A stretch of DNA of 64,000 nucleotides from Octopus vulgaris (Eukaryota), in assembly GCA_951406725.2 (NCBI GenBank), contig CATOCA020000001.1, forward strand, positions 6,386,001-6,450,000, read 5' to 3'. The translations under genes were made by a program, and so were the position numbers. The notes below the pieces were generated by a model. It searched no databases. It saw only the letters and a list, made by a program, of their open reading frames with translations, and was not told the DNA's origin. How positions within the stretch are numbered: the first letter of the stretch is position 1; each line of letters opens with the position of its first letter. Below, piece by piece: positions 34,530-61,275 of this stretch.

Positions 34530-34790
34530 CTCTCTGGCTTTGTTTAAATTCAAAAGTGGTCAACCAGACGTGAAGTCTTGTGAAGCCACATACATCAGAT
34601 CAACTAGAAGACAGATTCACCACAGACTGAGAAAGCATTCCCTCAAGACCACACCACCCAGGGCTTTATTCCAACAATGTCAATATTGCCAAGGGAAATA
34701 TCGCACCAGGATTATAGAAAGAGGCGTAGATGCCATCAACCACTGAATAACAGAGATCCACGTCTTTAGAAGCACAGCACAAAGTTTGAA
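34530..34790 (+). mobile_element. Old Penelope GIY-YIG endonuclease remnant
   Basis: FKFKS...CEATYIRSTRRQIHHRLRKH...RIIERG matches the VYKF-C...YIG-T-R-L--R--EH pattern. Confidence 0.6.
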
Positions 34791-35039
34791 GCTCTGAAGT
34801 GAGCTAGACGAATGGATTCATTTACTGCATTCAGGAATATTAATCGGTACATGTCAATTATACACATAAAATTAAAAATTAATGTAAAATATTTCCTTTT
34901 TTTAGCTGAAGGCAGAAATTTATTGTAGAGATTGCATTAAATTATATGAAGGAAAAAGAGTTTATATTTTTTATATTCCTGTAAAATTGACTTACAAATT
35001 AAAATATTTCCTTGAAATACAAAATTCCATCAGGTATAA

Positions 35040-35423
35040 TCTTTATATATAAAAGTAAGGTTGTGTGTCTGCCTCCTACGATTTAGATTCCTAACTACTC
35101 CCACATTTTGCGGTGCAGTTTAACCAAAACCGGGTATCTTATAGTCGTGATTCATATCGAGCCCTTCTGGGTATTAGCGCGCGTCTACGATGAGTCTACG
35201 ATTTAAAAAAAAATTACCATCTTTTTTTCCATTTTAATGCATTTTCTCGCTATCATATAAGGGAAGTAACTCTCTAAAAATGTCTACGATGAGTCAACGA
35301 TTTAAAAAAAAATTTATCATCATTTTCTTTCCATTTTTTTGCTATTTTTTGGCTATAACTCTCTAAAAATGCTTTATAGTTATTTCCCTTACAAACCCAA
35401 GCAACGCCGGGCGATACTGCTAG
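35040..35423 (+). mobile_element. Non-autonomous Helitron
   Basis: Inserted between A and T; 5' TCTTTATATATAAAAG; 3' GC-rich hairpin CCCAAGCAACGCCGGG then CTAG; a similar 3' end at ~34350-34376. Confidence 0.8.
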
Positions 35424-35563
35424 TTAGGTATAATTTTCTTCCTTTAAATTTTCTGACATATATTTATTTCAACCTTTCTATTCTTATGAAAATGCAGGAC
35501 ACATTTTTATAGTTTATATAATGGCTTGAGAAAAACATAAATGGGAATAGAAGAGCATTTGTA

Positions 35564-35620
<57 letters not shown>

Positions 35621-35636
35621 CATTTGTATGTGCATA

Positions 35637-35676
<40 letters not shown>

Positions 35677-35697
35677 GAGAGAGAGAGAGCATTTGTA

Positions 35698-35747
<50 letters not shown>

Positions 35748-35768
35748 GAGAGAGAGAGAGCATTTGTA

Positions 35769-35806
<38 letters not shown>

Positions 35807-36580
35807 TAAAAACGGTAAGATAACAAAAGAAAGAAAGAGACCTCAATATTATGTAAATAGAGGAAATTCTCTATAAAATAATATGTTACAATTACTCAAT
35901 AGAATATTCTATGTAATATGCTTCCATGTTAAATTTTTCTGTGTGTAAGAGTCCTCAACCGATGTGAGGCGATAAACCAAAAATCCGTATTAGCTCTTAG
36001 TGAATATATATATAAATGCACAAATAATTTACATTATGAAAACATGCTATAAATTAATAATTACTGACTAATTAGAGTAGAAATACGTACATGACTTTAA
36101 AAAAATATTTGGGTTTATATGATTGATTAAACACCCAAGTCTAAGCTCCAGCGTGGCCACAACCCAATGCTTTAAATAATAAAACGCATGACCCACATAT
36201 CATATGTATAACTTGAAATCTCTCCACCACCAACACCGTTTAGTCTCTTAATCTCTCCCTCTCCCTCTCTCCCTCTCTTTCTCTCTCTATAAACGACAAA
36301 CCCAATTTTCAATTATTATTCACCTCTTTCTCCTTTACAAATCTACACTTTTATATAATCATTTTATTTCCTCATCTATTCTACTGGTAATTCCAGAGAA
36401 ATCAAACATAATTTTCTTTTCTACTCTACGTACAAGACCCGAAATTTTGGAGGAGGAGGCCAGTCGATTAGGTCGACCCCAGTACGTAACTGGTACTCAA
36501 TTTATCGACAGCGAAAGGATGAAAGGCAAAATTGACCTCGGCGGAATTTGACTTCAGAACGTAAAGACAGACGAAATACC

Positions 36581-36935
36581 AGAAGGGGACAACACAGAGG
36601 GGACAGTACAATCTGATATGGGGTCAGATTTAACGTATGAATCGACACAAAGATGGATTTTAAAATTTTACATAAATATGAAGAGTTCGGATGATAAAAT
36701 ATACAACATTACAGAATGGAGTGGGGGGGACGGGATGTGCTTGGACCCCACGAGCGCTGCCTCCCCACTGATGCTTTGGGTTCATCCTGCATTGTATTCA
36801 TGCAGTTCCATCCGTACGCAGCTTTCGGGCGACATTCTTCCATCGATCTTGAAACCTTTTCGCGGACAGGCATTTTCTCTCAAACCCTATTTTCCTTCTT
36901 AGGTGGAAGGTGGAGAAATTAAACAACCCAGGGCT
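36581..36935 (-). mobile_element. Tx1/L1-like LINE 3' fragment
   Basis: LFNFSTFHLRRKIGFERKCLSAKRFQDRWKNVARKL* is homologous to FINFFKYHFKRKVRVERQVLSSECFKKRSVNVARM at 51793-51940. Confidence 0.65.
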
Positions 36936-37036
36936 AGAGATAGAATACCTATTATTAACCCTATTCTTAATTCACACAGCAGTTTAGAGACTCCGCCGTT
37001 CGTGCATAATAAACTTTATAATCATTCTAAACAATA

Positions 37037-37620
37037 AGGCGGCGAGTTGGCTGAAACGTTAGCACGCCGAGCGAAATGTGCAGCCGTATTTCGTCTGCCG
37101 TTACGTTCTGAGTTCAAATTCCGCCGAGGTCGCCTTTGCCTTTCATCGTTTCTAGGTCGATAAATTAAGTACCAGTTACGCACTGGGGTCAATATAATCG
37201 ATTTAATCCGTTTGTCTGTCCTTGTTTGTCCCCTCTGTGTTTAGTCCCTTGAGGGTAGTAAAGAAATAGGTATTTTGTCTGCCGCTACAGTCTGAGTTCA
37301 AATTCCGCCGAGGTCGACTTTGCCTTTCATCGTTTCGGGGTCGATAAATTAAGTACCAGTTACGCACTGGGGTCGATGTAATCGACTTAATCCGTTTGTC
37401 TGTCCTTGTTTGTCTTCTCTGTGTTTAGCCCCTTGTGGGTAGTAAAGAAATAGGTATTTTGTCTGTCGCTACGTTCTGAGCTCAAATTCCGCCGATGTCG
37501 ACAGTGCCTTTTTTGGGGTCGGTTAAATAAGTACCAGTTACGCACTGGGGTCTATATAATCGATTAACTCCCTTCCCCACAAATTTTCAAGTCCTTGTGC
37601 CAAGAGAAGAAATAATAATT
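37037..37620 (+). mobile_element. tRNA-derived SINE with ~2.5 internal tandem copies of a ~183-bp module
   Basis: GGCGGCGAGTTGGCTGAAACGTTAGCACG head; TTCTGAGTTCAAATTCCGCCGAGGTCG recurs at ~37106, ~37290 and ~37474. Confidence 0.8.
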
Positions 37621-38347
37621 CTAGACAACGTGAAATAATCCTCAGAAGACATCCATCTGATAGATAATATTTAAGATTACGAGAAAACATATTTAATGCA
37701 TTCCACATCAAAATGTTAACATAGGATAAAGAAGTGGGGAGAGAAATGTATGCAGTCACCCACTTTTTGAATGTTTAAACAATTCATACTCTTTCCTACA
37801 AGATATAAATATTATTTAAAATACGAGAACAATTACATTTAGATGCAAAATTCAAGAAATATTCTTTTCTACTCAAGACACAAGGCCCCAGATTTGGGGC
37901 GAAGTGGCCAGTAGATAAGTGTAATACCAGTACGCGACCAGTACGAAAGGATGAAAGGCAAAGTCGACCTCGGCGGAATTTGAACTCAGAAAATAAAGAC
38001 AGACGAAACATCGCTAAGTGTTTCGCCCGGCGTGCTAACGTTTCTGCCAAGCTAGCTGCCTTTTCTTTTCTACGATAGGCACAAGGCGAGGGGACCAGTT
38101 GATTGGATCGACACCAGTATGCAACTGGTATTTAATTCATCGACCCCAAAATGAGAGAGGGCAAAGTCAACCTCGGTGGAATTTGAACTCAGAACGTAAA
38201 GACGGACGAAATGCGTTGCAGCATTTCGTCCGGCGTGCTAACGTTTCTGCCAGCTCACGCCTTAAATTAAATAAAAATTATTTTCTGCTCTAGGCACAAG
38301 GGGAGGGAGCCTGATGCTCGAGAAAAATTTAAAACTCTTGTACATAT

Positions 38348-38378
<31 letters not shown>

Positions 38379-38467
38379 CATACATACATACATACATATA
38401 TACATACATACTTACATACATACATACATATATACATACATACATACATACATATATACATACATAC

Positions 38468-38498
<31 letters not shown>

Positions 38499-38524
38499 CA
38501 TCCATATATACATACATACATACA

Positions 38525-38558
<34 letters not shown>

Positions 38559-38643
38559 CATACATACTTACATACATACATACATATATACATACATACT
38601 TACATACATACATACATACATACATATATACATACATACTTAC

Positions 38644-38698
<55 letters not shown>

Positions 38699-38702
<4 letters not shown>

Positions 38703-38822
38703 TAATCCAAACAAGAAAGCACAAAAAACACAACAACGAAAGGACGTGGAACAAATAGAGTATTATTGGACGCTCAGGAAAGAAGGAAAGATCCAGAGAA
38801 GGGAAGACAGAGGAAAAAAATC

Positions 38823-38823
<1 letters not shown>
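38699..38823 (-). mobile_element. PLE-derived short element in (TA)n; internally deleted copy of 54175-54347
   Basis: AGTTAATCCAAACAAGAAAGCAC...GGACGCTCAGG shared with 54175. Confidence 0.7.
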
Positions 38824-38864
<41 letters not shown>

Positions 38865-39216
38865 GTAAACTCTATTTCCAGCCCTTCTACATTTGTATTT
38901 CTCAAGATAAGATTCAAGACAAGAAAATTTTTTTTTACCTTATTTCAAATGGTTTCGATGCTGGAGAAGCTTGGGATTCGTGTTTCCTCACGAAGCGAAA
39001 GGATATAAATGTTTCTTAGTTAGTTAATAAGCAGGAGGTGACTACTCTTATTCAATTTCGTGCCACACCCTGACTAACACAAGATCTTTTATTCAAATTT
39101 GAATGCTCTTTACAATTTGTCATGTCAAAGTATAATTCAATTCATTTCGTATGACGTAACCTCTCCATAATTGTCTGAAAACCTATGTGCATATATATAT
39201 ATATATAAGGATAAGA

Positions 39217-39270
<54 letters not shown>

Positions 39271-39356
39271 ATATGTATGCAGATTATATAAAACCCACTT
39301 AAATCTTGTCAAACCAGTTTTCTTGTTAAATTTTCATACACACACACAAAACTGAG

Positions 39357-39818
39357 CCCCACTACCCCGCCCTGTCCCTAGCTACATTCAGATGGCTGAT
39401 CCCCCTTATGTTATAGAGCAGTTACTGTTTATATCTCGCTCAGAGATTTATTATTGTTGTCGAACGGTTTTTCTACATCAGTGACTGTGGTTACTGTGAA
39501 AATCCATATATATCCAGCCTGTAGAGGAAGTCCCTCAACGAAGAACGGTGCTTACCATGCGTTGATAAGAGGCAAATACCTCGAAACCGGTCCGTATGTA
39601 GTATCCGTATCTTCGGGGAGGCTGATCTCCCTTTGCAGGCTGGCAAGGACACCGAGATGGTGTCAGCCCTTTTGGTGACGTTGATGATCGCATGGGGCTA
39701 AATGCATCAGTAACACCCCCACTACCCCGCCCTGTCCCTAGCCACATTCAGATGGCTGATCCCCCTTATGTTATAGAGCAGTTACTGTTTATATCTCGCT
39801 CAGAGATTTATTATTGTT
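39357..39818 (+). mobile_element. Second retrozyme-like element: 1.3 x 360-bp unit with a hammerhead
   Basis: 39357-39458 is repeated at 39717-39818 (period 360); 3' end abuts (AT)n. Confidence 0.8.
39541..39613 (+). ncRNA. Type I hammerhead ribozyme, U3-A8 variant
   Basis: CATGCG-TTGATAA-GAGG caaata CCTC-GAAA-CCGG-TC-CGTATG; stem I extends via TGCT/AGTA, ACGG/CCGT and AAGA/TCTT; predicted cleavage after 39592. Confidence 0.85.
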
Positions 39819-39830
39819 ATATATATATCT

Positions 39831-40452
39831 AAATATATATTATATTAAATTAGAGATAAAACCACTATTAGGCAAATCAAACAGTGAAAAACATAAGCCA
39901 ATACATAAAATTAATTTAAAAATATAAAAGTTAAAATTTAAAAAATTATTTAAATAATTTGAACTTATAAATTTTAAATATATATATATACAAATATATA
40001 TATATATATGTGTGTGTGTATGTATGTATATTTTTATATTTATATATTATTTTATTTATTCATTTATTTATTAATTAATTAATTTATTTATTTATTTATA
40101 TAATAATTAAAAAAAATTGATAAATAAATAATTAAATATATTAATTAATAAACAAATTAATAAATAAAATAAAATATAAATATAAAAGATACATACACAC
40201 ATATATATATATATATATATATATTTGTATATATATATATATTTAAAATTTATAAGTTTAAATTATTTAAAATATTTTTTAAACTTTAACTTTTATATTT
40301 TTAAATTAATTTTATGTATTGGCTTATGTTTTTCAATGTTTGATTTGCCTAATAGTGGTTTTATCTCTAATTTAATATAATATATTTATACTATAAAATT
40401 GGATTTAATCCTAAATCTAATTTTTCCCTGCAATTTTGGATTTATTCCCTAA
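39831..40452 (+). mobile_element. AT-rich foldback insertion: ~250-290-bp inverted arms plus 3' tail (PLE-like)
   Basis: TTAGAGATAAAACCACTATTAGGCAAATCAAAC (39850) is mirrored by GTTTGATTTGCCTAATAGTGGTTTTATCTCTAA (40338); flanked by (TA)n. Confidence 0.7.
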
Positions 40453-40473
40453 TATATATATATATATATATAT

Positions 40474-41290
<817 letters not shown>

Positions 41291-42020
41291 CATATATATA
41301 TATATATATATATATATGACGGGCTTCTTTCAGTTTCCGTTCACCAAATTCACTCACAAGAGTTTGATGGCCCAAGGCAACAGTAAACACACTTGCCTAA
41401 ATAGCCTCACACGCACTTTCTCTCCTTCTCTCCTTCTCTCACTCTCTCTCTCTCTCTCTCTCTCCCCTGGTGTGTTTATGTCCGCGTAACTTCAGCTGTT
41501 CGGCAAAACAGATCGATAGGATAAGTACTCGGCTTACAAAGGATATGTCCCCGGATTGATTTGTTTGACTTATGAGGCTTGAGAGACGTATGTGGGTGTA
41601 TATAGAGTTGTTTACTGGGATAGAAGTATAATTTTTTTTTTATAAAAGCGACTTCAGTTGTTAATGTTAAGTCAAGTGTAACAACACTCTTCGCTTATTG
41701 TGGCATAAGTCACACAAACACCTTTTCTTCGATTCGCACACACACAGGCACACCTGTTTCATACTAACAATTACTACTAGAGACACACTCAATGACTTGT
41801 TAGTAATATTTATAACTATTCCTTGGTAATTTACATTCTGGGTTCGAATCCCGTCACCTTTTATCATTTGAGGGTCGATACAATTCTCTCAAAATTAACT
41901 TTGGCGTCGATATAATTAATTAGCAAAAGTTAAAACCTTATAATTGTAGTAAGCAGAATTATTTGTAGCTCGAGGTGCACCTTGTAGATGATTATTCTAT
42001 TTATATAAGGACGTAGAGTG

Positions 42021-42560
42021 TAGGCGCGTGGCTTAGTGGTTAGGGTGTCAGCATCATGATCGCATGATTGTGGTTTCGATTCCTGGACGGAGCAAAACAC
42101 TTCATTTCACGTTGCTCCAGTCCACTCAGCTGGCAAAAATGAGTAACGTTGCGATGGACTGGCGACTCCTCCAGCTGGGGATCACATACGCCATTGAAAC
42201 CGGGAAACCGGGCCCATGAGCCTGTCTAGGCTTTAAAAGGGCGAATTTATTTTGTAGAGGCGCAATGACTCTCTGGTTAGGGGAGGGGACTCGCGGTCGG
42301 AGGATGGCGGCTTCGATTCCCAGACCGCGTGTTGTGTGTGTTTATTGAGCGAAAACACCTAATGCTCCACGAGGCTCAGGTAGGGGGTGGTGGCGAACCC
42401 CTGTTCTACTCTTTCGCCCCAACTTTCTCTCATACTTTCTTCCTGTTTCTTGGGTTACGCTCTGATGGCCAGGCGTCCCGTCCACCTGGAGAACACATAC
42501 GCCACATAAACCGGGAAACCGGGCCCATGAGCACTGACTAGGCTTGAAAAGGGCGCATAA
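42021..42560 (+). mobile_element. Two adjacent tRNA-headed SINEs (related copy at 51211-51410)
   Basis: A/B-box heads GGCGCGTGGCTTAGTGGTTAGG...GTTTCGATTCC; shared tail AAACCGGGAAACCGGGCCCATGAG. Confidence 0.75.
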
Positions 42561-44277
42561 ACAGATACGGACAGAGAATGGAACAGAGAGAACGAGTGTG
42601 AGTGAAGGAGAGGGAGAGTTTGAGTGTGGGCAAAACAATCTCATAAACCCCACTCCCAAGGAAGAGAAACTAGGAGTTACTTCTACACGTCCTCTTGGAG
42701 ATTATGGGAAGTTAATTTCACATGTGCCCCCGTCCAACTCCTGCATCTGGAGCCCACTTCTCTCTTGACTTCCATACCTCTGTATCTATTCTTGGCCTTT
42801 ACTTTGCACGGGTTGTACCCTATAGTATTTCTGTTTTACTTCCATCAAATCAGTTATGGTCATTTCCACCATGGTAACAAGCTCCTATCTTCTTCCTTAC
42901 TAATTCTTCAGATCCTTTCAACCAAAACAGCTTCGTCATCAACATTTATTCTTGTTAGATAGTAACATTATCTTTAATAATATTTATATGTCTTGTGTAT
43001 ATATATAGATATATGTGTGTGCGTGTACATATATACTACTATGGCACTCCGTCGGTTAAGACGAAGAGGTTTCCAGTTGATCCAGTCAACGGAAGACTAC
43101 TCGTGAAATTCTTTTCAACTCTAGGCAGAAGGTCCGAAATTTTAAGGGAGGCAGCCATCGATTAGATCTACATCAGTTCGAAACTTGTACTTGATTTATC
43201 TACACCGAAAGGATGAAAGGCAAAGTCGACCTCGACGGAATTTGAACTCAGAAAGTAAAGACAGACGAATTACCTATTTTTTTACTACCCACAGGGGGCT
43301 AAACACAGAGGGGACAAACAAGGACAGACAAATGGATTAAGTCGATTATATCGACCCCAGTGCGTAACTGGTCCTTATTTAATCGACCCCGAAAAGATGA
43401 AAGGCAAAGTCGACCGCTTGCTAACGTTTTTGCCAACTCGCCGCCTTAGACTCTTCGTGAAATATATATGCAAGTAGCTGAGCACTCCACAGACACGTGT
43501 ACCCTTAACGTAGTTCTCGGTGAGATTCAGCGTGACACAGAGTGTGACATGGCTGGTCCCTTTGAAATACAGGTACAACAGAAACAGGAAGAGAGAGTGA
43601 GAGAAAGTTGTGGTGAAATAATACAGCAGGGTTCGCCACCAGCCCTTGCTGGAGCGTCGTAGAGCTTTAGGTGTTTTAGTTTAATGAACACTTGCGACGA
43701 GTTGGACTTCATTTCACATTCCTTGGAGAAGAATGACTCACCCTGCGATGGACTGAGTCTCCCGTCCATATGCGGAATATATATGCCAAGGTAGACTGTT
43801 CCCATGCGTCTGGCTGCCAACAGAAGTAACTTTATTTACTATTTATATATGTATATATATATATATGTGTATGTATATGTGCGTATATATGTATGTATTT
43901 GCATGCTTTTTAAATCTAGTAGTTATTCTATCGGTATCTTTTGCTGAACCGCAAAGTTACGGGGACGTAAACACTACAGCATTGGTTGTGAAGCGATGGT
44001 GCGGTGACAAACACAAACATATATATATATATATACATCCGATGGGCTTCTTTCAGTTTCCATCGACCTAATCTACTCACAAGGATTGGGTTAGCCCGTG
44101 GCTATAGAATAAGACACTCACCAAAGGTGCCTCGCAGTGAGATTGAACTCAGAACAATGTGGTAGGTAAGCAAGCTTCTCACCACACAGTCACGTGTCAC
44201 TTTTCAACTTTCTATATATGAATGTATATATTTGTCTATGTAAATATATTGTTATGAGCACACGTACATCGAGCAAT

Positions 44278-44318
<41 letters not shown>

Positions 44319-48586: not shown

Positions 48587-51209
<2,623 letters not shown>

Positions 51210-54779: not shown

Positions 54780-54784
<5 letters not shown>

Positions 54785-57084
54785 AAACAAGTAAAAAATA
54801 GAAAATGCTAAAATAATTTTATAGTGAACATTTCAGTACCGGTTTCGGTCATTTTGAGACCTTTTCAACTGTAACGATTAAATAATTAAATTTAGAAAAA
54901 TTAGAAGAAAAGTTTTTTTAAAACAATATTTCTATAGTAGTGTTCAGATTTAAGTGGCATTCTGCCTTTCTCTGACTCCCTTGTTTGCACTTGTGTGTTC
55001 GAGGTAGTTGTGAGTTCTTGGTAGGGTAGTAGAGGGAAGGCTGGTGAGGAAAGGGGGTGGGAGAATCTGGGAGTGCCCTGATGGTCGTATTTTGAATGGT
55101 CAGTGGCGGCTGGCAGTCTCAGTTCAATTCAGGAGAATATTTATATCGACAGGCTTGTTTATAGAATTAGCGTAGGTGTTATACTAAAAAACATTAGTGA
55201 CAAACTTAAGGGGTAGGGGGTGGAGAAGAAGAAGAAGAAGAAGAAGAAGAAGAAGAAGAAGGAGAAGGAGAAGATGATGGTGATGGTGGTGATGATTATG
55301 ACGACGATGATGATGATAACGATGATGATGAAGAAGAAGAAGAAGAAGGAGGAGGAGAAGATGGTGGTGATGATGGTGGCGATGATGATGACGCCGATGA
55401 TGATGATAACGATGATGATGAAGAAGAAGAAGAAGAAAAAAACAGAGAAGGGAGAATATGAATGGGTGTAAATATAGCTATGAAGGGGCTGATTAGTAAT
55501 GGATTCTATGGAGTGTAGTATGTGTGTGTGTATATATATTTTTTTTCTTTTATTCTAAAGTTGAGGTATATTAATTGTTTGTCGTAGACCCGTTAAGAAG
55601 TGGCTTGTATTTTGTAATAAAGAGATTTTCTTTACTTATTCTTTGTCTCGAGGTTGTATCGTCCCTAAATTGGTAGAGGGGGAAAATTCTGAAGTTTGGT
55701 GTTTTTTTGTTGGCGCAAGTATCTATGTGTTGGCTAAAAGCTATTTTTCTGTTTTGGGGAATTTTTATCTGGGATCTGTGCAGGGCCATTCGTTTACGCA
55801 AACCATTTTTTGTTTGGCCTATGTACTGCTCTTGACACCCGGAGCAGGTTAGTGAGTATATTAGGTTCTCCGAAGCACATGTGAAGTTGCTTTTCACTGT
55901 AAACCGTTGTCCCTGTTTGAAGGAGAACTCAGAACCCTCGATTAGATAGTCGCATATCCCGCAATTGGGTCTTCCACATTTTTTTACTGTCGGCTTCTGT
56001 GTTGAAGAGTGAATTCGGGCTTGTGTAAGGAGACTTTTCATGGATCTAGGCTGTCTTTTGCTTTTTATGATCGTGTGTGTTTGGAGGATTGTGTTCATTC
56101 TGTGGTCTTTTTTTAGGAGGGGTATGTTGTGGAGGATGGTGTCGAAGGCTTCGTTATTGAGAGGGTTGTGTGTGGAGATGTATGGTAAGGCTTTTGGTTG
56201 TAAGTTTTTCTTTGATTTGGGATGTCTCAGTTCCTTGATGTTAAGTTGAAGGGCACGTTGAATGCACTTGTCAATAAGTGAAGGTGGATAGTTCCTGGTG
56301 ATTAGGGTATCTTTTAGTTCTTGTAGTCGTGTGTCTCTGGTGTTTGCGTTAGAGACTATAGTGCATATCCTTTTTGCTAGATTGAAGGGGATATTCATCC
56401 TGGTGTGTCTGGGGTGGCATGAATTGAATGGAAGATATTGCTTAGAGTCTGTAGGCTTATAGTATATGTCTGTTTCCATTATATTATTAGCTTTCTTAAT
56501 GAGGATATCGAGGAAGGGGAGTTGTTGTTGGCTATATTCCATCGTGAATTGGATGTTTACGTCCAGTCCGTTTAAAATTTTCTGGAATTCTATGAGTTTT
56601 TCTATATTTTTATGCCAAAGGATGAAACAGTCATCTAGATATCTCTTCCAGTTGTTTTCTATGTAGATGGAGAAAGGGCTGCCATATCTTTCTAGAACCT
56701 TACGATACAGACTGATCTCTAGGTATCCTATGACTAGGTTGGCAAAGGAGGGGGCCATTCGTGTACCCATCGCAGTCCCCGATTTTTGTCGGTAGAAGTT
56801 GTCATTGAAGGCGAAGAAGTTATTTTCCAGGATGAATTTAACCCCTTCTATCACAAATTCTTTTTTGATGCGGTGTGGTAGTTCGTTGGCGTGATTCTCT
56901 AGCCAGAATTGGATTGCCTCTAGTCCTAGGTTGTGGGGGATATTGGAGTAGAGGTTGACTACATCGAAGGATACCAGTATGGTGTTTTTGTTTATAGTAT
57001 TCGGTAGGTGATTGAGCATATCTAAGTCGTCCCTTATATAGCTTTTGACATGTTTGAGGAGTGGTTTTAACAGGGTGTCTAAAA
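54780..57084 (-). mobile_element. Inverted duplicate of the 3' 2.3 kb of the Penelope-like element (RT core, GIY-YIG, 3' UTR, HHR at 54834-54871)
   Basis: Reverse complement of 58900-61200; ORF 55571-57118 is identical to the 717-aa ORF from LDTLLKP onward. Confidence 0.95.
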
Positions 57085-57085
57085 C

Positions 57086-57802
57086 ATTAGAACATTTTTC
57101 TCTAACAACGCTAACCAAGGACCTCCAAACGCGTCAATATATGGGATCAATACTCTAACAACATACCAAATGAAACACCACATAATACCACAATGGAACA
57201 AATCACTCAGAGATAGAAAGTTCGCCTTTTGGAAGATGATCCAAAACAACAACAAAGCGGATATATACGAAAAATGGCTCAACCGGACCCCGTTAATCCT
57301 CCCACGTAAATTCCAGTTCAAAGCTATTACAGAAGAACCTGAAACACAAAGACACCTCAGGGAGAGAATGGCACTGGAAAAAATGAAAATGGAAATAGAA
57401 CTTCTGAAATTGAGGGCCCAAACGAATGAGGATAAAATAAAATCCACCGATGAAGATATCAACGAAGAAATTCGCAAAATGACCCAAGGCCCAGATCAAG
57501 AGAAGTTCTCCAAACTATGGAAAGAGGACTGTGAAAATGAAGAACTAAAATCTCTCCAACGCTGGGAGAAAAGCGCCACTTGGTTCTCAGACTATGAAGC
57601 CGTCTTTCAAACAGAGCACGCCTCCAACAACCCTTTCCAGAAAATAAGAAAACCAAAACAACACCCAAACACCGATACACACCTGTCTAAAAATCGGAAC
57701 CTTCACTACTATCAAAAAAAGAATACAGGACCTAACCCCAACTCTGTAAGCAGCCAGCGATACAATATCAGGAATACCCCACTTCAAGCAGAGAAAGGAT
57801 AA
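57086..57802 (+). CDS. PLE upstream ORF (coiled-coil-like), open back to the inversion junction
   Basis: 210 aa from ATG 57170 with no stop back to 57086; charged heptad-like ETQRHLRERMALEKMKMEIELLKLRAQTNEDKIKSTDEDINEEIRKM. Confidence 0.7.
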   Translation: MRTFFSNNANQGPPNASIYGINTLTTYQMKHHIIPQWNKSLRDRKFAFWKMIQNNNKADIYEKWLNRTPLILPRKFQFKAITEEPETQRHLRERMALEKMKMEIELLKLRAQTNEDKIKSTDEDINEEIRKMTQGPDQEKFSKLWKEDCENEELKSLQRWEKSATWFSDYEAVFQTEHASNNPFQKIRKPKQHPNTDTHLSKNRNLHYYQKKNTGPNPNSVSSQRYNIRNTPLQAEKG

Positions 57803-58082
57803 ATCAACACCCACAGCATAGACACTGCAACCTCATCCCCACCCAAAGGAGTTACCAACGAAATCTTCGTCCCATTAACCGGTTAAACAACCATGCACAA
57901 CAAACCCACACCACTTGCAATGATTACCAACGAAGGCCTCCTAGAACACCACACCCGAATATGGGATATCGGGATGCTCTCCTCAATACTGCTCCAAGAA
58001 CACACACCACAAATCACAACAGGAGACCCCTAATCAACAAAGAACAACTATATACTAGCTACCGTCCCAACCACCGCATTCA

Positions 58083-60413
58083 TTTTTTAGACCCAATACG
58101 CAAACACAGAGACACAAGATAGCACCAAACAAGCAGGAGGAACCAAAAGTAATAAAAATTATTAATCTAACTCACAAGGAACTAACAGCAAACCAAATAA
58201 ACATACTTTCCAAAGGACTCAAGTTTACACCCACCCCACAACACCCCAACTACAATGAAATGAAAGAAGACATCGCAGAATTCTGCAGAAAATTAAGACT
58301 TACTGAGGAGCTATACGATAAATACAACGAGGACGAATCGTTAGCCAGAAATAGGAGTAACTACACCCCCTCGAAAGGTAAGAATAAAACACTTGATGAT
58401 TTCTGTGACCACATATCAAATTACCCATATCAACATATGCACAAACAAAAACACAAACCAAACTTCAGCAAAAAAGAATGGGCTGAGTTGAACAAATTAA
58501 AACTAGATAAAACAATAACAATCAAAGAGGCCGATAAAGGGAGTGCTGTTGTCTTAATGGATACGACATTTTACATAACTTTGGTACTTTCTATGCTGGA
58601 AGACACAACATACTATGAAAAGGCACAAAACTACAGTCAACAAAAAATAATGAGGGAACTAAAATCCATATTAAACCCATACAAAGCAGGGCTCACCGAC
58701 AAAGAATATGATTATATGACCAATTTCACAAGTAAAACTAGCCAATTCTACGGTATACCTAAGATCCACAAAAGTGAAAAAATAAGCAACGCATGCAAGA
58801 TAGCTACAGACAAAATAATTAAAGTCCCTAATCCTAATGACCTCAAATTGAGACCCATAATAGCAGGTCCCGCATGCGAAACCCACCGCCTCAGTAACTT
58901 TTTAGACACCCTGTTAAAACCACTCCTCAAACATGTCAAAAGCTATATAAGGGACGACTTAGATATGCTCAATCACCTACCGAATACTATAAACAAAAAC
59001 ACCATACTGGTATCCTTCGATGTAGTCAACCTCTACTCCAATATCCCCCACAACCTAGGACTAGAGGCAATCCAATTCTGGCTAGAGAATCACGCCAACG
59101 AACTACCACACCGCATCAAAAAAGAATTTGTGATAGAAGGGGTTAAATTCATCCTGGAAAATAACTTCTTCGCCTTCAATGACAACTTCTACCGACAAAA
59201 ATCGGGGACTGCGATGGGTACACGAATGGCCCCCTCCTTTGCCAACCTAGTCATAGGATACCTAGAGATCAGTCTGTATCGTAAGGTTCTAGAAAGATAT
59301 GGCAGCCCTTTCTCCATCTACATAGAAAACAACTGGAAGAGATATCTAGATGACTGTTTCATCCTTTGGCATAAAAATATAGAAAAACTCATAGAATTCC
59401 AGAAAATTTTAAACGGACTGGACGTAAACATCCAATTCACGATGGAATATAGCCAACAACAACTCCCCTTCCTCGATATCCTCATTAAGAAAGCTAATAA
59501 TATAATGGAAACAGACATATACTATAAGCCTACAGACTCTAAGCAATATCTTCCATTCAATTCATGCCACCCCAGACACACCAGGATGAATATCCCCTTC
59601 AATCTAGCAAAAAGGATATGCACTATAGTCTCTAACGCAAACACCAGAGACACACGACTACAAGAACTAAAAGATACCCTAATCACCAGGAACTATCCAC
59701 CTTCACTTATTGACAAGTGCATTCAACGTGCCCTTCAACTTAACATCAAGGAACTGAGACATCCCAAATCAAAGAAAAACTTACAACCAAAAGCCTTACC
59801 ATACATCTCCACACACAACCCTCTCAATAACGAAGCCTTCGACACCATCCTCCACAACATACCCCTCCTAAAAAAAGACCACAGAATGAACACAATCCTC
59901 CAAACACACACGATCATAAAAAGCAAAAGACAGCCTAGATCCATGAAAAGTCTCCTTACACAAGCCCGAATTCACTCTTCAACACAGAAGCCGACAGTAA
60001 AAAAATGTGGAAGACCCAATTGCGGGATATGCGACTATCTAATCGAGGGTTCTGAGTTCTCCTTCAAACAGGGACAACGGTTTACAGTGAAAAGCAACTT
60101 CACATGTGCTTCGGAGAACCTAATATACTCACTAACCTGCTCCGGGTGTCAAGAGCAGTACATAGGCCAAACAAAAAATGGTTTGCGTAAACGAATGGCC
60201 CTGCACAGATCCCAGATAAAAATTCCCCAAAACAGAAAAATAGCTTTTAGCCAACACATAGATACTTGCGCCAACAAAAAAACACCAAACTTCAGAATTT
60301 TCCCCCTCTACCAATTTAGGGACGATACAACCTCGAGACAAAGAATAAGTAAAGAAAATCTCTTTATTACAAAATACAAGCCACTTCTTAACGGGTCTAC
60401 GACAAACAATTAA
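58083..60413 (+). CDS. PLE reverse transcriptase plus GIY-YIG endonuclease
   Basis: IINLT..LSKGLKFTPTP (upstream of ATG 58260), KEADKG, FYGIPKIHK, LRPII, SFDVVNLY, GTAMG, RYLDD, PFLD, CGRPNCGIC, NLIYSLTC..YIGQT..R..H; frame intact. Confidence 0.95.
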   Translation, partial: FFRPNTQTQRHKIAPNKQEEPKVIKIINLTHKELTANQINILSKGLKFTPTPQHPNYNEMKEDIAEFCRKLRLTEELYDKYNEDESLARNRSNYTPSKGKNKTLDDFCDHISNYPYQHMHKQKHKPNFSKKEWAELNKLKLDKTITIKEADKGSAVVLMDTTFYITLVLSMLEDTTYYEKAQNYSQQKIMRELKSILNPYKAGLTDKEYDYMTNFTSKTSQFYGIPKIHKSEKISNACKIATDKIIKVPNPNDLKLRPIIAGPACETHRLSNFLDTLLKPLLKHVKSYIRDDLDMLNHLPNTINKNTILVSFDVVNLYSNIPHNLGLEAIQFWLENHANELPHRIKKEFVIEGVKFILENNFFAFNDNFYRQKSGTAMGTRMAPSFANLVIGYLEISLYRKVLERYGSPFSIYIENNWKRYLDDCFILWHKNIEKLIEFQKILNGLDVNIQFTMEYSQQQLPFLDILIKKANNIMETDIYYKPTDSKQYLPFNSCHPRHTRMNIPFNLAKRICTIVSNANTRDTRLQELKDTLITRNYPPSLIDKCIQRALQLNIKELRHPKSKKNLQPKALPYISTHNPLNNEAFDTILHNIPLLKKDHRMNTILQTHTIIKSKRQPRSMKSLLTQARIHSSTQKPTVKKCGRPNCGICDYLIEGSEFSFKQGQRFTVKSNFTCASENLIYSLTCSGCQEQYIGQTKNGLRKRMALHRSQIKIPQNRKIAFSQHIDTCANKKTPNFRIFPLYQFRDDTTSRQRISKENLFITKYKPLLNGSTTNN

Positions 60414-61103
60414 TATACCTCAACTTTAGAATAAAAGAAAAAAATATATATACACACACACATACTACACTCCATAGAATCCATTACTAATCAGCCCCTT
60501 CATAGCTATATTTACACCCATTCATATTCTCCCTTCTCTGTTTTTTTCTTCTTCTTCTTCTTCATCATCATCGTTATCATCATCATCGGCGTCATCATCA
60601 TCGCCACCATCATCACCACCATCTTCTCCTCCTCCTTCTTCTTCTTCTTCTTCATCATCATCGTTATCATCATCATCGTCGTCATAATCATCACCACCAT
60701 CACCATCATCTTCTCCTTCTCCTTCTTCTTCTTCTTCTTCTTCTTCTTCTTCTTCTCCACCCCCTACCCCTTAAGTTTGTCACTAATGTTTTTAGTATAA
60801 CACCTACGCTAATTCTATAAACAAGCCTGTCGATATAAATATTCTCCTGAATTGAACTGAGACTGCCAGCCGCCACTGACCATTCAAAATACGACCATCA
60901 GGGCACTCCCAGATTCTCCCACCCCCCTTTCCTCACCAGCCTTCCCTCTACTACCCTACCAAGAACTCACAACTACCTCGAACACACAAGTGCAAACAAG
61001 GGAGTCAGAGAAAGGCAGAATGCCACTTAAATCTGAACACTACTATAGAAATATTGTTTTAAAAAAACTTTTCTTCTAATTTTTCTAAATTTAATTATTT
61101 AAT

Positions 61104-61151
61104 CGTTACAGTTGAAAAGGTCTCAAAATGACCGAAACCGGTACTGAAATG
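61104..61151 (+). ncRNA. Minimal type I hammerhead, U3-A8 variant, in the PLE 3' terminus
   Basis: CAG-TTGAAAA-GGTC tcaaaat GACC-GAAA-CCGG-TA-CTG; palindromic ACCGGT stem III; predicted cleavage after 61143. Confidence 0.8.
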
Positions 61152-61233
61152 TTCACTATAAAATTATTTTAGCATTTTCTATTTTTTACTTGTTTTTTCA
61201 TATATATCAACTCGTGTGTTCCTTTTCACCCTT

Positions 61234-61275
<42 letters not shown>

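What the first reader, a model, noticed from the sequence alone, without database searches (positions are those of the whole stretch)
39357..39818. Second 360-nt retrozyme family with the same predicted tertiary-contact architecture
Seen: the sequence is unrelated to the 362-bp unit, yet it has nearly the same period (360 vs 362), a U3-A8 core, a similar loop II (CAAATA vs CAATA) and the same TAC/T internal loop 6 bp from the core in stem I, with fully different but paired stems. Known: stem I-loop II contacts give fast cleavage at low Mg2+. Inference: structure and monomer length are under selection.
Basis: partly seen in the sequence, partly recalled or inferred. Interest (0 to 1): 0.75.

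Follow-up and report, generated by a model that had tools for sequence, protein, structure and literature searches.

The report
Penelope-mobilised hammerhead retrozyme family
This is one copy of a known kind of small jumping element carrying a predicted self-cutting RNA; it is a distant relative of the 362-base repeat nearby rather than an independent look-alike, and the way its copies begin and end suggests that a Penelope-type enzyme likely copies it from a circular RNA.

Summary
The 360-nt repeat and its type I hammerhead are real, but the central claim fails: the 360 and 362 families are homologous (collinear, about 54% identical; z 4.5 even outside the ribozyme). They are two of four lineages (53-60% identical, 351-365 nt). 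Ribozyme structure is under selection (16 of 18 pairs covary, including C3-G8/U3-A8), but the CAAAUA loop and UAC bulge are the textbook Schistosoma-type contact. Length conservation is no tighter than shared ancestry predicts. The unreported part is the insertion anatomy. 74 of 85 arms end at two fixed sites 43 nt apart, mostly in (AT)n. All 22 two-armed inverted copies with both arms at these sites join one short and one long arm of one haplotype. 53 of 55 long-enough arms run through the cleavage site. An intact Penelope-like element in the same window has the same two-end pattern. This is insertion-level evidence that a Penelope reverse transcriptase mobilises retrozymes, likely from circles; uncleaved multimers are not excluded. 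No partner family was identified and no cleavage or RNA was shown. This locus has one ribozyme and lies in a segmental duplication. The scan noted similar two-arm patterns on Penelope stubs in other genomes.

The parts
39357..39818 (+). Family-B retrozyme insertion, 1.28 monomers of 360 nt, 5'-truncated, single arm ending at the long (tail-bearing) 3' end; GC 0.48; only two short chance-sized ORFs
39549..39603 (+). Type I hammerhead: outer helix I 39549-52/39600-03, TAC bulge 39553-55 opposite T39599, helix I 39556-61/39593-98, core U3..A8 39562-68, helix II 39569-72/39579-82 with loop CAAATA 39573-78, palindromic helix III 39586-91; predicted cut between 39592 and 39593
39770..39775 (+). Short 3' end of family-B arms (monomer position 59, 183 nt after the cut; also 39415); inferred first reverse-transcription start site
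   Evidence: 42 of 85 arms end here
39776..39818 (+). 43-nt 'tail' between the two fixed 3' ends, holding a predicted small hairpin (39793-39807) kept in the four-lineage consensus fold; long end at 39818 is the inferred second start site
   Evidence: 32 of 85 arms end here
39819..39829 (+). (AT)n target remnant at the 3' junction
   Evidence: 58 of 74 fixed-end arms are followed by (AT)n
2598..6742 (+). Family-A retrozyme array, 11.4 units of 362 nt, homologous to family B, ending at its short 3' end in (AT)n
2403..2601 (-). Inverted 5'-truncated arm of the family-A insertion, ending at the long 3' end in (AT)n
57083..61240 (+). Penelope-like element (RT + CX4CxxC linker + GIY-YIG, ORF 58059-60413, Neptune-like) with minimal U3-A8 hammerhead at 61112 and long (tail) end; example of the likely enzyme class, not shown to be the partner
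54781..57089 (-). Inverted 5'-truncated arm of the Penelope-like element, ending at its short end in (AT)n

Best explanation
This is a 5'-truncated copy of a non-coding 360-nt retrozyme that shares ancestry with the 362-nt family and is likely copied into (AT)n repeats by a Penelope-like reverse transcriptase working on a predicted circular RNA. Shown from sequence: one canonical type I hammerhead per monomer with covarying helices; four collinear lineages; two fixed 3' ends; inverted arms pairing one short with one long end; arms running through the cleavage site. Inferred steps: (1) Tandem source copies are transcribed as multimers. (2) The ribozyme, whose helix III is a short palindrome, would cut mainly as a dimer and release monomers that a host ligase would close; the lone ribozyme in the circle would then be largely quiet. 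(3) A Neptune-like RT/GIY-YIG protein would nick both strands of an (AT)n tract and start DNA synthesis at the two sites that bracket the tail hairpin, one per DNA end, on one RNA haplotype. (4) Synthesis would run round the circle past the ligated cut and stop at random, and the two cDNAs would join head to head, or only one arm would survive, as at this locus. This locus holds one ribozyme, so it could not by itself release a monomer. Component odds: retrozyme 0.95, common descent 0.95, Penelope-type enzyme 0.85, circle rather than uncleaved multimer as main template about 0.6.
For: Homology: (lineages A, B, C, D 53-60% identical, 351-365 nt). Ribozyme: (30 hand-picked ribozymes, 90% of cells paired, 16 of 18 pairs with two-sided changes, slid controls 26-50%; C3-G8 in 15, U3-A8 in 12). 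Ends: 74 of 85 B arms at two sites; 43 of 50 in the pattern-sampled subset; 22 of 22 two-armed fixed-end copies mixed; family A: 39 of 43 arms, 15 of 16 mixed. The short end falls at about the same alignment columns in all four lineages (lineage C rests on few ends). Two arms of one insertion differ at 6 of 203 diagnostic sites, against 46% between insertions. Read-through: 53 of 55 long-enough B arms pass the cut (26 of 28 pattern-sampled); the junction is intact in 146 of 176 ribozyme contexts, with no indel hotspot at the B cut. The Penelope element of this window has the same two ends (17 short, 16 long of 34 records). Literature: tail on one end, inverted truncated copy and (TA)n bias are Penelope hallmarks (PMC8557442, PMC3846280); the tail lies between two RT start sites (PMC11167929); animal retrozymes form circles by RtcB-type ligation (PMC7229834).
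Against: No autonomous partner was found. A retrozyme profile matched none of the Penelope terminal repeats in 60 loci, and tail-to-tail similarity was not significant in 12 comparisons (best p 0.105). Read-through fits an uncleaved multimer equally well, and in the one in-vitro Penelope system unprocessed RNA is the main substrate and ribozyme mutants still insert (PMC11167929). Repeats inside one insertion are not more alike than the nearest other insertion (0.019 versus 0.017; 12 of 38). The window's 362 array is mixed at one private site (6 of 11 units), so it is not a plain copy of one circle. 9 of 128 arms start within 5 nt of the cut (about 4 expected), so some templates look cleaved and linear. 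One family-A copy has two long ends. 30 of the 90 B loci were chosen as best full-length matches, which favours long arms. Cleavage, circles and expression were not observed.
Confidence: 0.55

Rival explanations
1. Same element and same Penelope-type enzyme, but the template is an uncleaved multimer transcript of a tandem source array (or linear monomers with template jumps); the ribozyme serves another step and circles are a by-product.
For: [quoted passage not shown] Tandem arrays exist as sources. Mixed units in the window's 362 array. Slight excess of 5' ends at the cut. One insertion lacks a nucleotide at the junction in both arms (L181).
Against: The full tertiary-contact ribozyme is kept by compensatory change over about 45% divergence, whereas the autonomous elements sampled keep only minimal ones. 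All repeats and both arms of an insertion share subfamily haplotype. No indel hotspot at the cut, which template jumping would tend to leave.
Confidence: 0.3
2. The copies are 5'-truncated terminal repeats of an autonomous Penelope family not sampled here, not a self-standing retrozyme lineage.
For: In Xenopus 24 of 57 retrozyme families resemble known elements, nearly all Penelope ends (bioRxiv 10.64898/2026.07.22.740005). 22463 Penelope-like candidates exist in the genome and only a few families were seen.
Against: Copies continue 5' into another monomer, up to 831 nt in B and 11 units in A. In the 30 tail-sampled B loci, the two Penelope ORF pieces lie beyond the (AT)n junction, not upstream as for a terminal repeat. 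All Penelope ends seen carry minimal ribozymes with unrelated flanks.
Confidence: 0.08
3. One reading: two unrelated families converged on one ribozyme architecture and one monomer length because both are selected.
For: BLASTN finds only a weak match between the units (E 0.38). Four lineages stay within 351-365 nt. Helices do covary.
Against: End-to-end collinear similarity outside the ribozyme, in both halves separately (z 2.5 and 3.2). Shared hairpins and homologous 3' ends. Length differences match random indels. The loop motif is the general metazoan one.
Confidence: 0.04
4. A DNA-level satellite spread by duplication, with a decayed ribozyme-like motif.
For: This particular copy lies in a duplicated block of about 9-10 kb on its contig, with seven copies sharing its junctions. 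The core is not protected among copies.
Against: Fixed 3' ends, variable 5' ends, inversions, (AT)n junctions and dispersal over nearly all large contigs; covariation.
Confidence: 0.03

Closest known systems
Metazoan non-LTR retrozymes (Cervera and de la Pena 2020, PMC7229834; results and discussion read)
   Same: Non-coding tandem repeats of 150-450 bp with one canonical type I hammerhead, GC under 50%; mussel units 350-390 nt, axolotl 330 and 350 nt; Penelope elements proposed as the mobiliser.
   Different: That paper argues for Penelope from co-occurrence and shared ribozyme type; the words 'inverted', 'microsatellite' and 'cephalopod' do not occur in its main text (supplement unreadable). 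Here the insertion ends themselves carry the Penelope signature. Expression and cleavage are shown there, not here.
Vertebrate retrozymes as non-autonomous Penelope derivatives (Li, Clavereau, Pollet 2026, bioRxiv 10.64898/2026.07.22.740005; parts 1-3 of 5 read)
   Same: Same conclusion on the partner class; monomers, dimers and arrays coexist.
   Different: Their evidence is co-distribution and sequence homology to Xenopus terminal repeats; no mention of tails, start sites or molluscs. Here no homology to any sampled Penelope end was found, yet the end anatomy is Penelope-like. Only 1 of their 9 tested dimers cleaved.
Endonuclease-positive Penelope-like elements, Neptune-like (PMC8557442, PMC3846280 passages; PMC11167929 main text)
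   Same: Inverted 5'-truncated arm, tail on one end only, two RT start sites, (TA)n targets, hammerhead upstream of the ends.
   Different: No ORF; full canonical rather than minimal ribozyme; tail 43 nt (B) to about 60 nt (A) versus 30-40; ends 183 and 226 nt after the cut versus about 60 and 95 in the window's Penelope element; tail sequences not detectably related.
Schistosoma mansoni full-length hammerhead (described in PMC2632901, passages)
   Same: CAAAUA loop 2 and a UAC-containing internal loop in helix I that dock on each other.
   Different: U3-A8 in place of C3-G8 (a variant already reported in Schistosoma Penelope elements, PMC4209133); the opposite side of the internal loop is a single U here.

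Membership tests
Canonical type I hammerhead ribozyme | Conserved core with a Watson-Crick 3-8 pair, GAAA and NUH cut site | tested here: met
   U3-A8 in 56 of 56 family-B ribozymes; variant known (PMC4209133)
Canonical type I hammerhead ribozyme | Helix I 6 bp and helix II 4 bp with loop-loop contact nucleotides | tested here: met
   All 6 + 4 pairs show two-sided changes; bulge U in 59 of 59 covering arms, loop II starting CAA in 56 of 56 and ending A in 55 of 56. The contact itself is inferred from PMC2632901.
Canonical type I hammerhead ribozyme | Short helix III with palindromic loop (dimer-type) | tested here: met
   Loop ends pair in 29 of 30; the palindrome self-pairs at -8.3 kcal/mol
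Canonical type I hammerhead ribozyme | Site-specific self-cleavage | not testable with these tools
   Needs in vitro transcription
Canonical type I hammerhead ribozyme | Match to an Rfam hammerhead model (a convenience test, not a definition) | tested here: not met
   No hammerhead family at gathering score or at E up to 10
Non-LTR retrozyme | Non-coding monomer of 150-450 nt with one type I hammerhead, GC under 50% | tested here: met
Non-LTR retrozyme | Tandem organisation with at least two ribozymes (the 'active' criterion of Li et al.) | tested here: inconclusive
   Not met at this locus (one ribozyme); met by the family: 14 of 85 arms span two or more cut sites, sister subfamily in 359-nt arrays
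Non-LTR retrozyme | Expression as linear and circular monomer RNA | not testable with these tools
   Only contig-level runs were available
Non-LTR retrozyme | Long target-site duplication when present | tested here: inconclusive
   Most ends lie in (AT)n, which hides duplications
Penelope-type insertion | Two fixed 3' ends, tail on one arm only | tested here: met
   22 of 22 (B) and 15 of 16 (A) two-armed fixed-end copies
Penelope-type insertion | Inverted 5'-truncated arm and (TA)n target bias | tested here: met
Penelope-like element proper | RT + GIY-YIG ORF, or terminal repeat homologous to an autonomous family | tested here: not met
   (a few families sampled only)

The most novel reading that the evidence does not exclude
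Animal retrozyme circles carry their own ORF-free landing pad for Penelope reverse transcriptase: two start sites around a hairpin, held in place across four lineages that are only 53-60% identical and unrelated in sequence to the autonomous elements' ends. The enzyme twin-primes both DNA ends on one circle and rolls through the ligated ribozyme junction. This would be direct genomic proof of rolling-circle target-primed reverse transcription and would give a 360-nt minimal substrate for the Penelope mechanism.
Probability: 0.4. Interest if true: 0.7.

Novelty: new member of a known kind. Interest (0 to 1): 0.45.

Why it matters
How animal retrozymes get back into the genome is still argued from co-occurrence and, in frogs, from sequence likeness. 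The ends mapped here tie them to Penelope chemistry at the level of single insertions and name the nucleotides where reverse transcription should start, which turns the question into a simple in vitro test (circle versus multimer, with and without the tail hairpin). Sister subfamilies that differ in the core pair (C3-G8 versus U3-A8), bulge and loop II are also a natural mutant series.

Tried and rejected
Independent origin of the two families: rejected. Selection on monomer length: not detected, low power with four lineages. Conservation among copies as evidence of selection: uninformative, core 0.9% versus rest 1.4%. Rfam: no hammerhead match. A covariance model from 30 ribozymes found only the 12 known sites in the window, which it matches by construction. 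Expression: no RNA holder listed; contigs of five runs laid cover the monomer but cannot show strand, ends or circularity. The tail-sharing contigs led not to an autonomous partner but to another retrozyme lineage, D. Partner search: the window's Penelope family and 30 GIY-YIG loci have unrelated ends; an apparent tail likeness to one family was not significant. A-to-I editing footprint: none, A>G equals T>C on the sense strand (15 versus 18 in B, 7 versus 7 in A). Within-insertion identity test for a single template: no signal. No tRNA near the locus. The cephalopod literature search returned nothing relevant among the 15 papers listed. The earlier-findings search by sequence gave one irrelevant hit.

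Full report
What is there. Window 39357-39818 is 360 nt plus a 102-nt repeat of its start (99% identical). The host genome has 2.8 Gb in 227 contigs; earlier scan notes call it octopus-like, which I did not test. A search with the monomer gave 145 matches from 40 of 1782 candidates scored, on most large contigs; a 27-letter piece has 215 exact matches. This copy lies in a block of about 9-10 kb repeated on its contig at 93-97% (three copies compared), and seven copies share its junctions, so six were dropped before counting.

The two families are relatives. BLASTN sees only a weak match. A global alignment started at the cleavage site gives 199 identities in 373 columns, z 8.1, 0 of 500 shuffles; without the ribozyme hairpin z 4.5, 0 of 1000, and each half is above background. 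Pattern searches and 20 fetched regions added further subfamilies. Of 45 full monomers extracted, 13 representatives fall into four lineages, A, B, C and D, 53-60% identical between representatives, collinear, 351-365 nt long. Net length differences are no smaller than sign-randomised indels give (six pairs, P 0.19-0.66). Similar length is therefore explained by descent; a mild constraint is not excluded.

The ribozyme is maintained, and ordinary. On 30 ribozymes picked by hand to span subfamilies, 90% of cells pair and 16 of 18 pairs change on both sides, against 26-50% paired in slid controls (the sequences are related and the structure was drawn from two of them). The 3-8 core pair is C-G in 15 and U-A in 12, and differs between family B and its 87%-identical sister. 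Among 56 family-B ribozymes the bulge is TAC in 51 and TGC in 5; loop II is CAAATA in 29, CAATAA in 24 and other in 3. The CAAAUA loop and UAC internal loop are those of the Schistosoma crystal structure (PMC2632901, passages). Helix I of 6 bp, helix II of 4 bp, a short palindromic helix III and the U3-A8 variant are described in PMC4209133 (passages). Other hairpins of the monomer also show compensated pairs in a circular consensus fold (alignment-dependent).

How copies are inserted. From 90 loci (30 best full-length matches, 60 sampled by short patterns) I mapped 91 arms in 57 elements, 85 after dropping duplicates. 42 end at monomer position 59, 32 at 102 and 11 elsewhere; 58 of the 74 are followed by (AT)n; 5' ends are scattered. 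All 22 two-armed inverted copies with both arms at fixed ends join one short and one long arm. Family A, 23 elements from best-match loci, gives 39 of 43 arms at two sites and 15 of 16 mixed. The short end falls at alignment columns 187-199 in all lineages; the long end at 239-246 in B and D and 252-257 in A and C (de-duplication there was loose and C has five ends). The two arms of an insertion share haplotype (6 of 203 versus 46%). Of 55 B arms long enough to reach the cut, 53 pass it.

The enzyme class. The same window holds an intact Penelope-like element (784-aa frame, RVT_1 above the Pfam cut-off and GIY-YIG just below it) with a CX4CxxC linker, a Neptune/Nematis feature (PMC8557442, passages). 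It has 150 scored copies at 99-100%. Its copies end at two sites 33-38 nt apart in (AT)n (17 short, 16 long, 1 cut by the locus edge). An inverted truncated arm with a tail on one end is the published Penelope hallmark (PMC8557442; PMC3846280, passages), and the tail lies between two RT start sites mapped in vitro (PMC11167929, parts 1-2 of 4). The partner family is unknown: no terminal repeat in 60 Penelope loci matched the retrozyme profile, and tail likeness was not significant.

Circle or multimer. Read-through excludes a simple cleaved linear monomer as the main template. A circle fits the kept full-strength, dimer-type ribozyme and the circles shown for coral, mussel and axolotl (PMC7229834, parts 2-4 of 6). 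Against it: the anole enzyme uses unprocessed RNA in vitro; the window's 362 array is mixed at a private site; within-insertion identity gave no signal; and 9 of 128 arms start near the cut against about 4 expected (Poisson about 0.02, by hand). I put the circle at about 0.6.

Novelty. Retrozymes and their link to Penelope elements are in print (PMC7229834; PMC7761336, passages; bioRxiv 10.64898/2026.07.22.740005, parts 1-3 of 5). I found no description of Penelope tails or two fixed ends on retrozymes, nor of cephalopod retrozymes, in searches (listings seen) or in the texts read; supplements were not seen and subscription papers are not covered. Earlier scan notes report the long/short pairing on Penelope stubs in other genomes; I reached my reading before that call and did not check those notes. 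Verdict: a new member of a known kind. The convergence claim is wrong; the insertion anatomy is the part worth following.

Noticed in passing
window 57083-61240 (+) and 54781-57089 (-): Young, intact Neptune-like Penelope element with inverted arm, minimal U3-A8 hammerhead, microsatellite-filled 3' UTR and an upstream 239-aa frame (57083-57802) without Pfam match; at least 150 near-identical copies.
   Followed up: partly
window 34567-44310: Block duplicated on the same contig at 93-97%; seven copies share the family-B junctions.
   Followed up: partly
window 39830-40390: AT-rich fold-back element (206-nt arms, 90% complementary) directly 3' of the retrozyme; a similar sequence follows a lineage-D copy in L244, and it has high depth in laid contigs.
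   Followed up: no
window 2598-6742: One variant (unit position 232) is private to this 362-nt array and present in 6 of 11 units in no regular order, suggesting local exchange after insertion or a mixed template.
   Followed up: partly
L196:970-1750: Tandem 360-nt subfamily 77% identical to B with C at core position 4 and a longer palindromic helix III; a 359-nt contig of it has depth 142 in run X1.
   Followed up: partly
L181 and L157: L181 lacks one nucleotide at the cleavage junction in both arms; L157 has a 5-nt duplication at the junction. Possible ligation or template-jump scars.
   Followed up: partly
L232-L237: 119-nt tandem array made of the 3' end of a lineage-D retrozyme plus its (AT)n target: a minisatellite born from an insertion end.
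   Followed up: no
L156 (same place as L094): A fifth, more distant hammerhead element with longer loop II and weak match to the monomer profile.
   Followed up: no
window 8548-11058, 15775-18036, 18447-27418: Very long (ATC)n and (CAT)n tracts and a 9-kb pyrimidine-rich satellite with 119/222-nt periods.
   Followed up: no
window 6811-7298 and 49623-50110: 488-nt inverted copies, 98% identical, one directly after the family-A array; probably another young mobile element.
   Followed up: no
window 37086-37567: 184-nt tandem of a common dispersed repeat.
   Followed up: no
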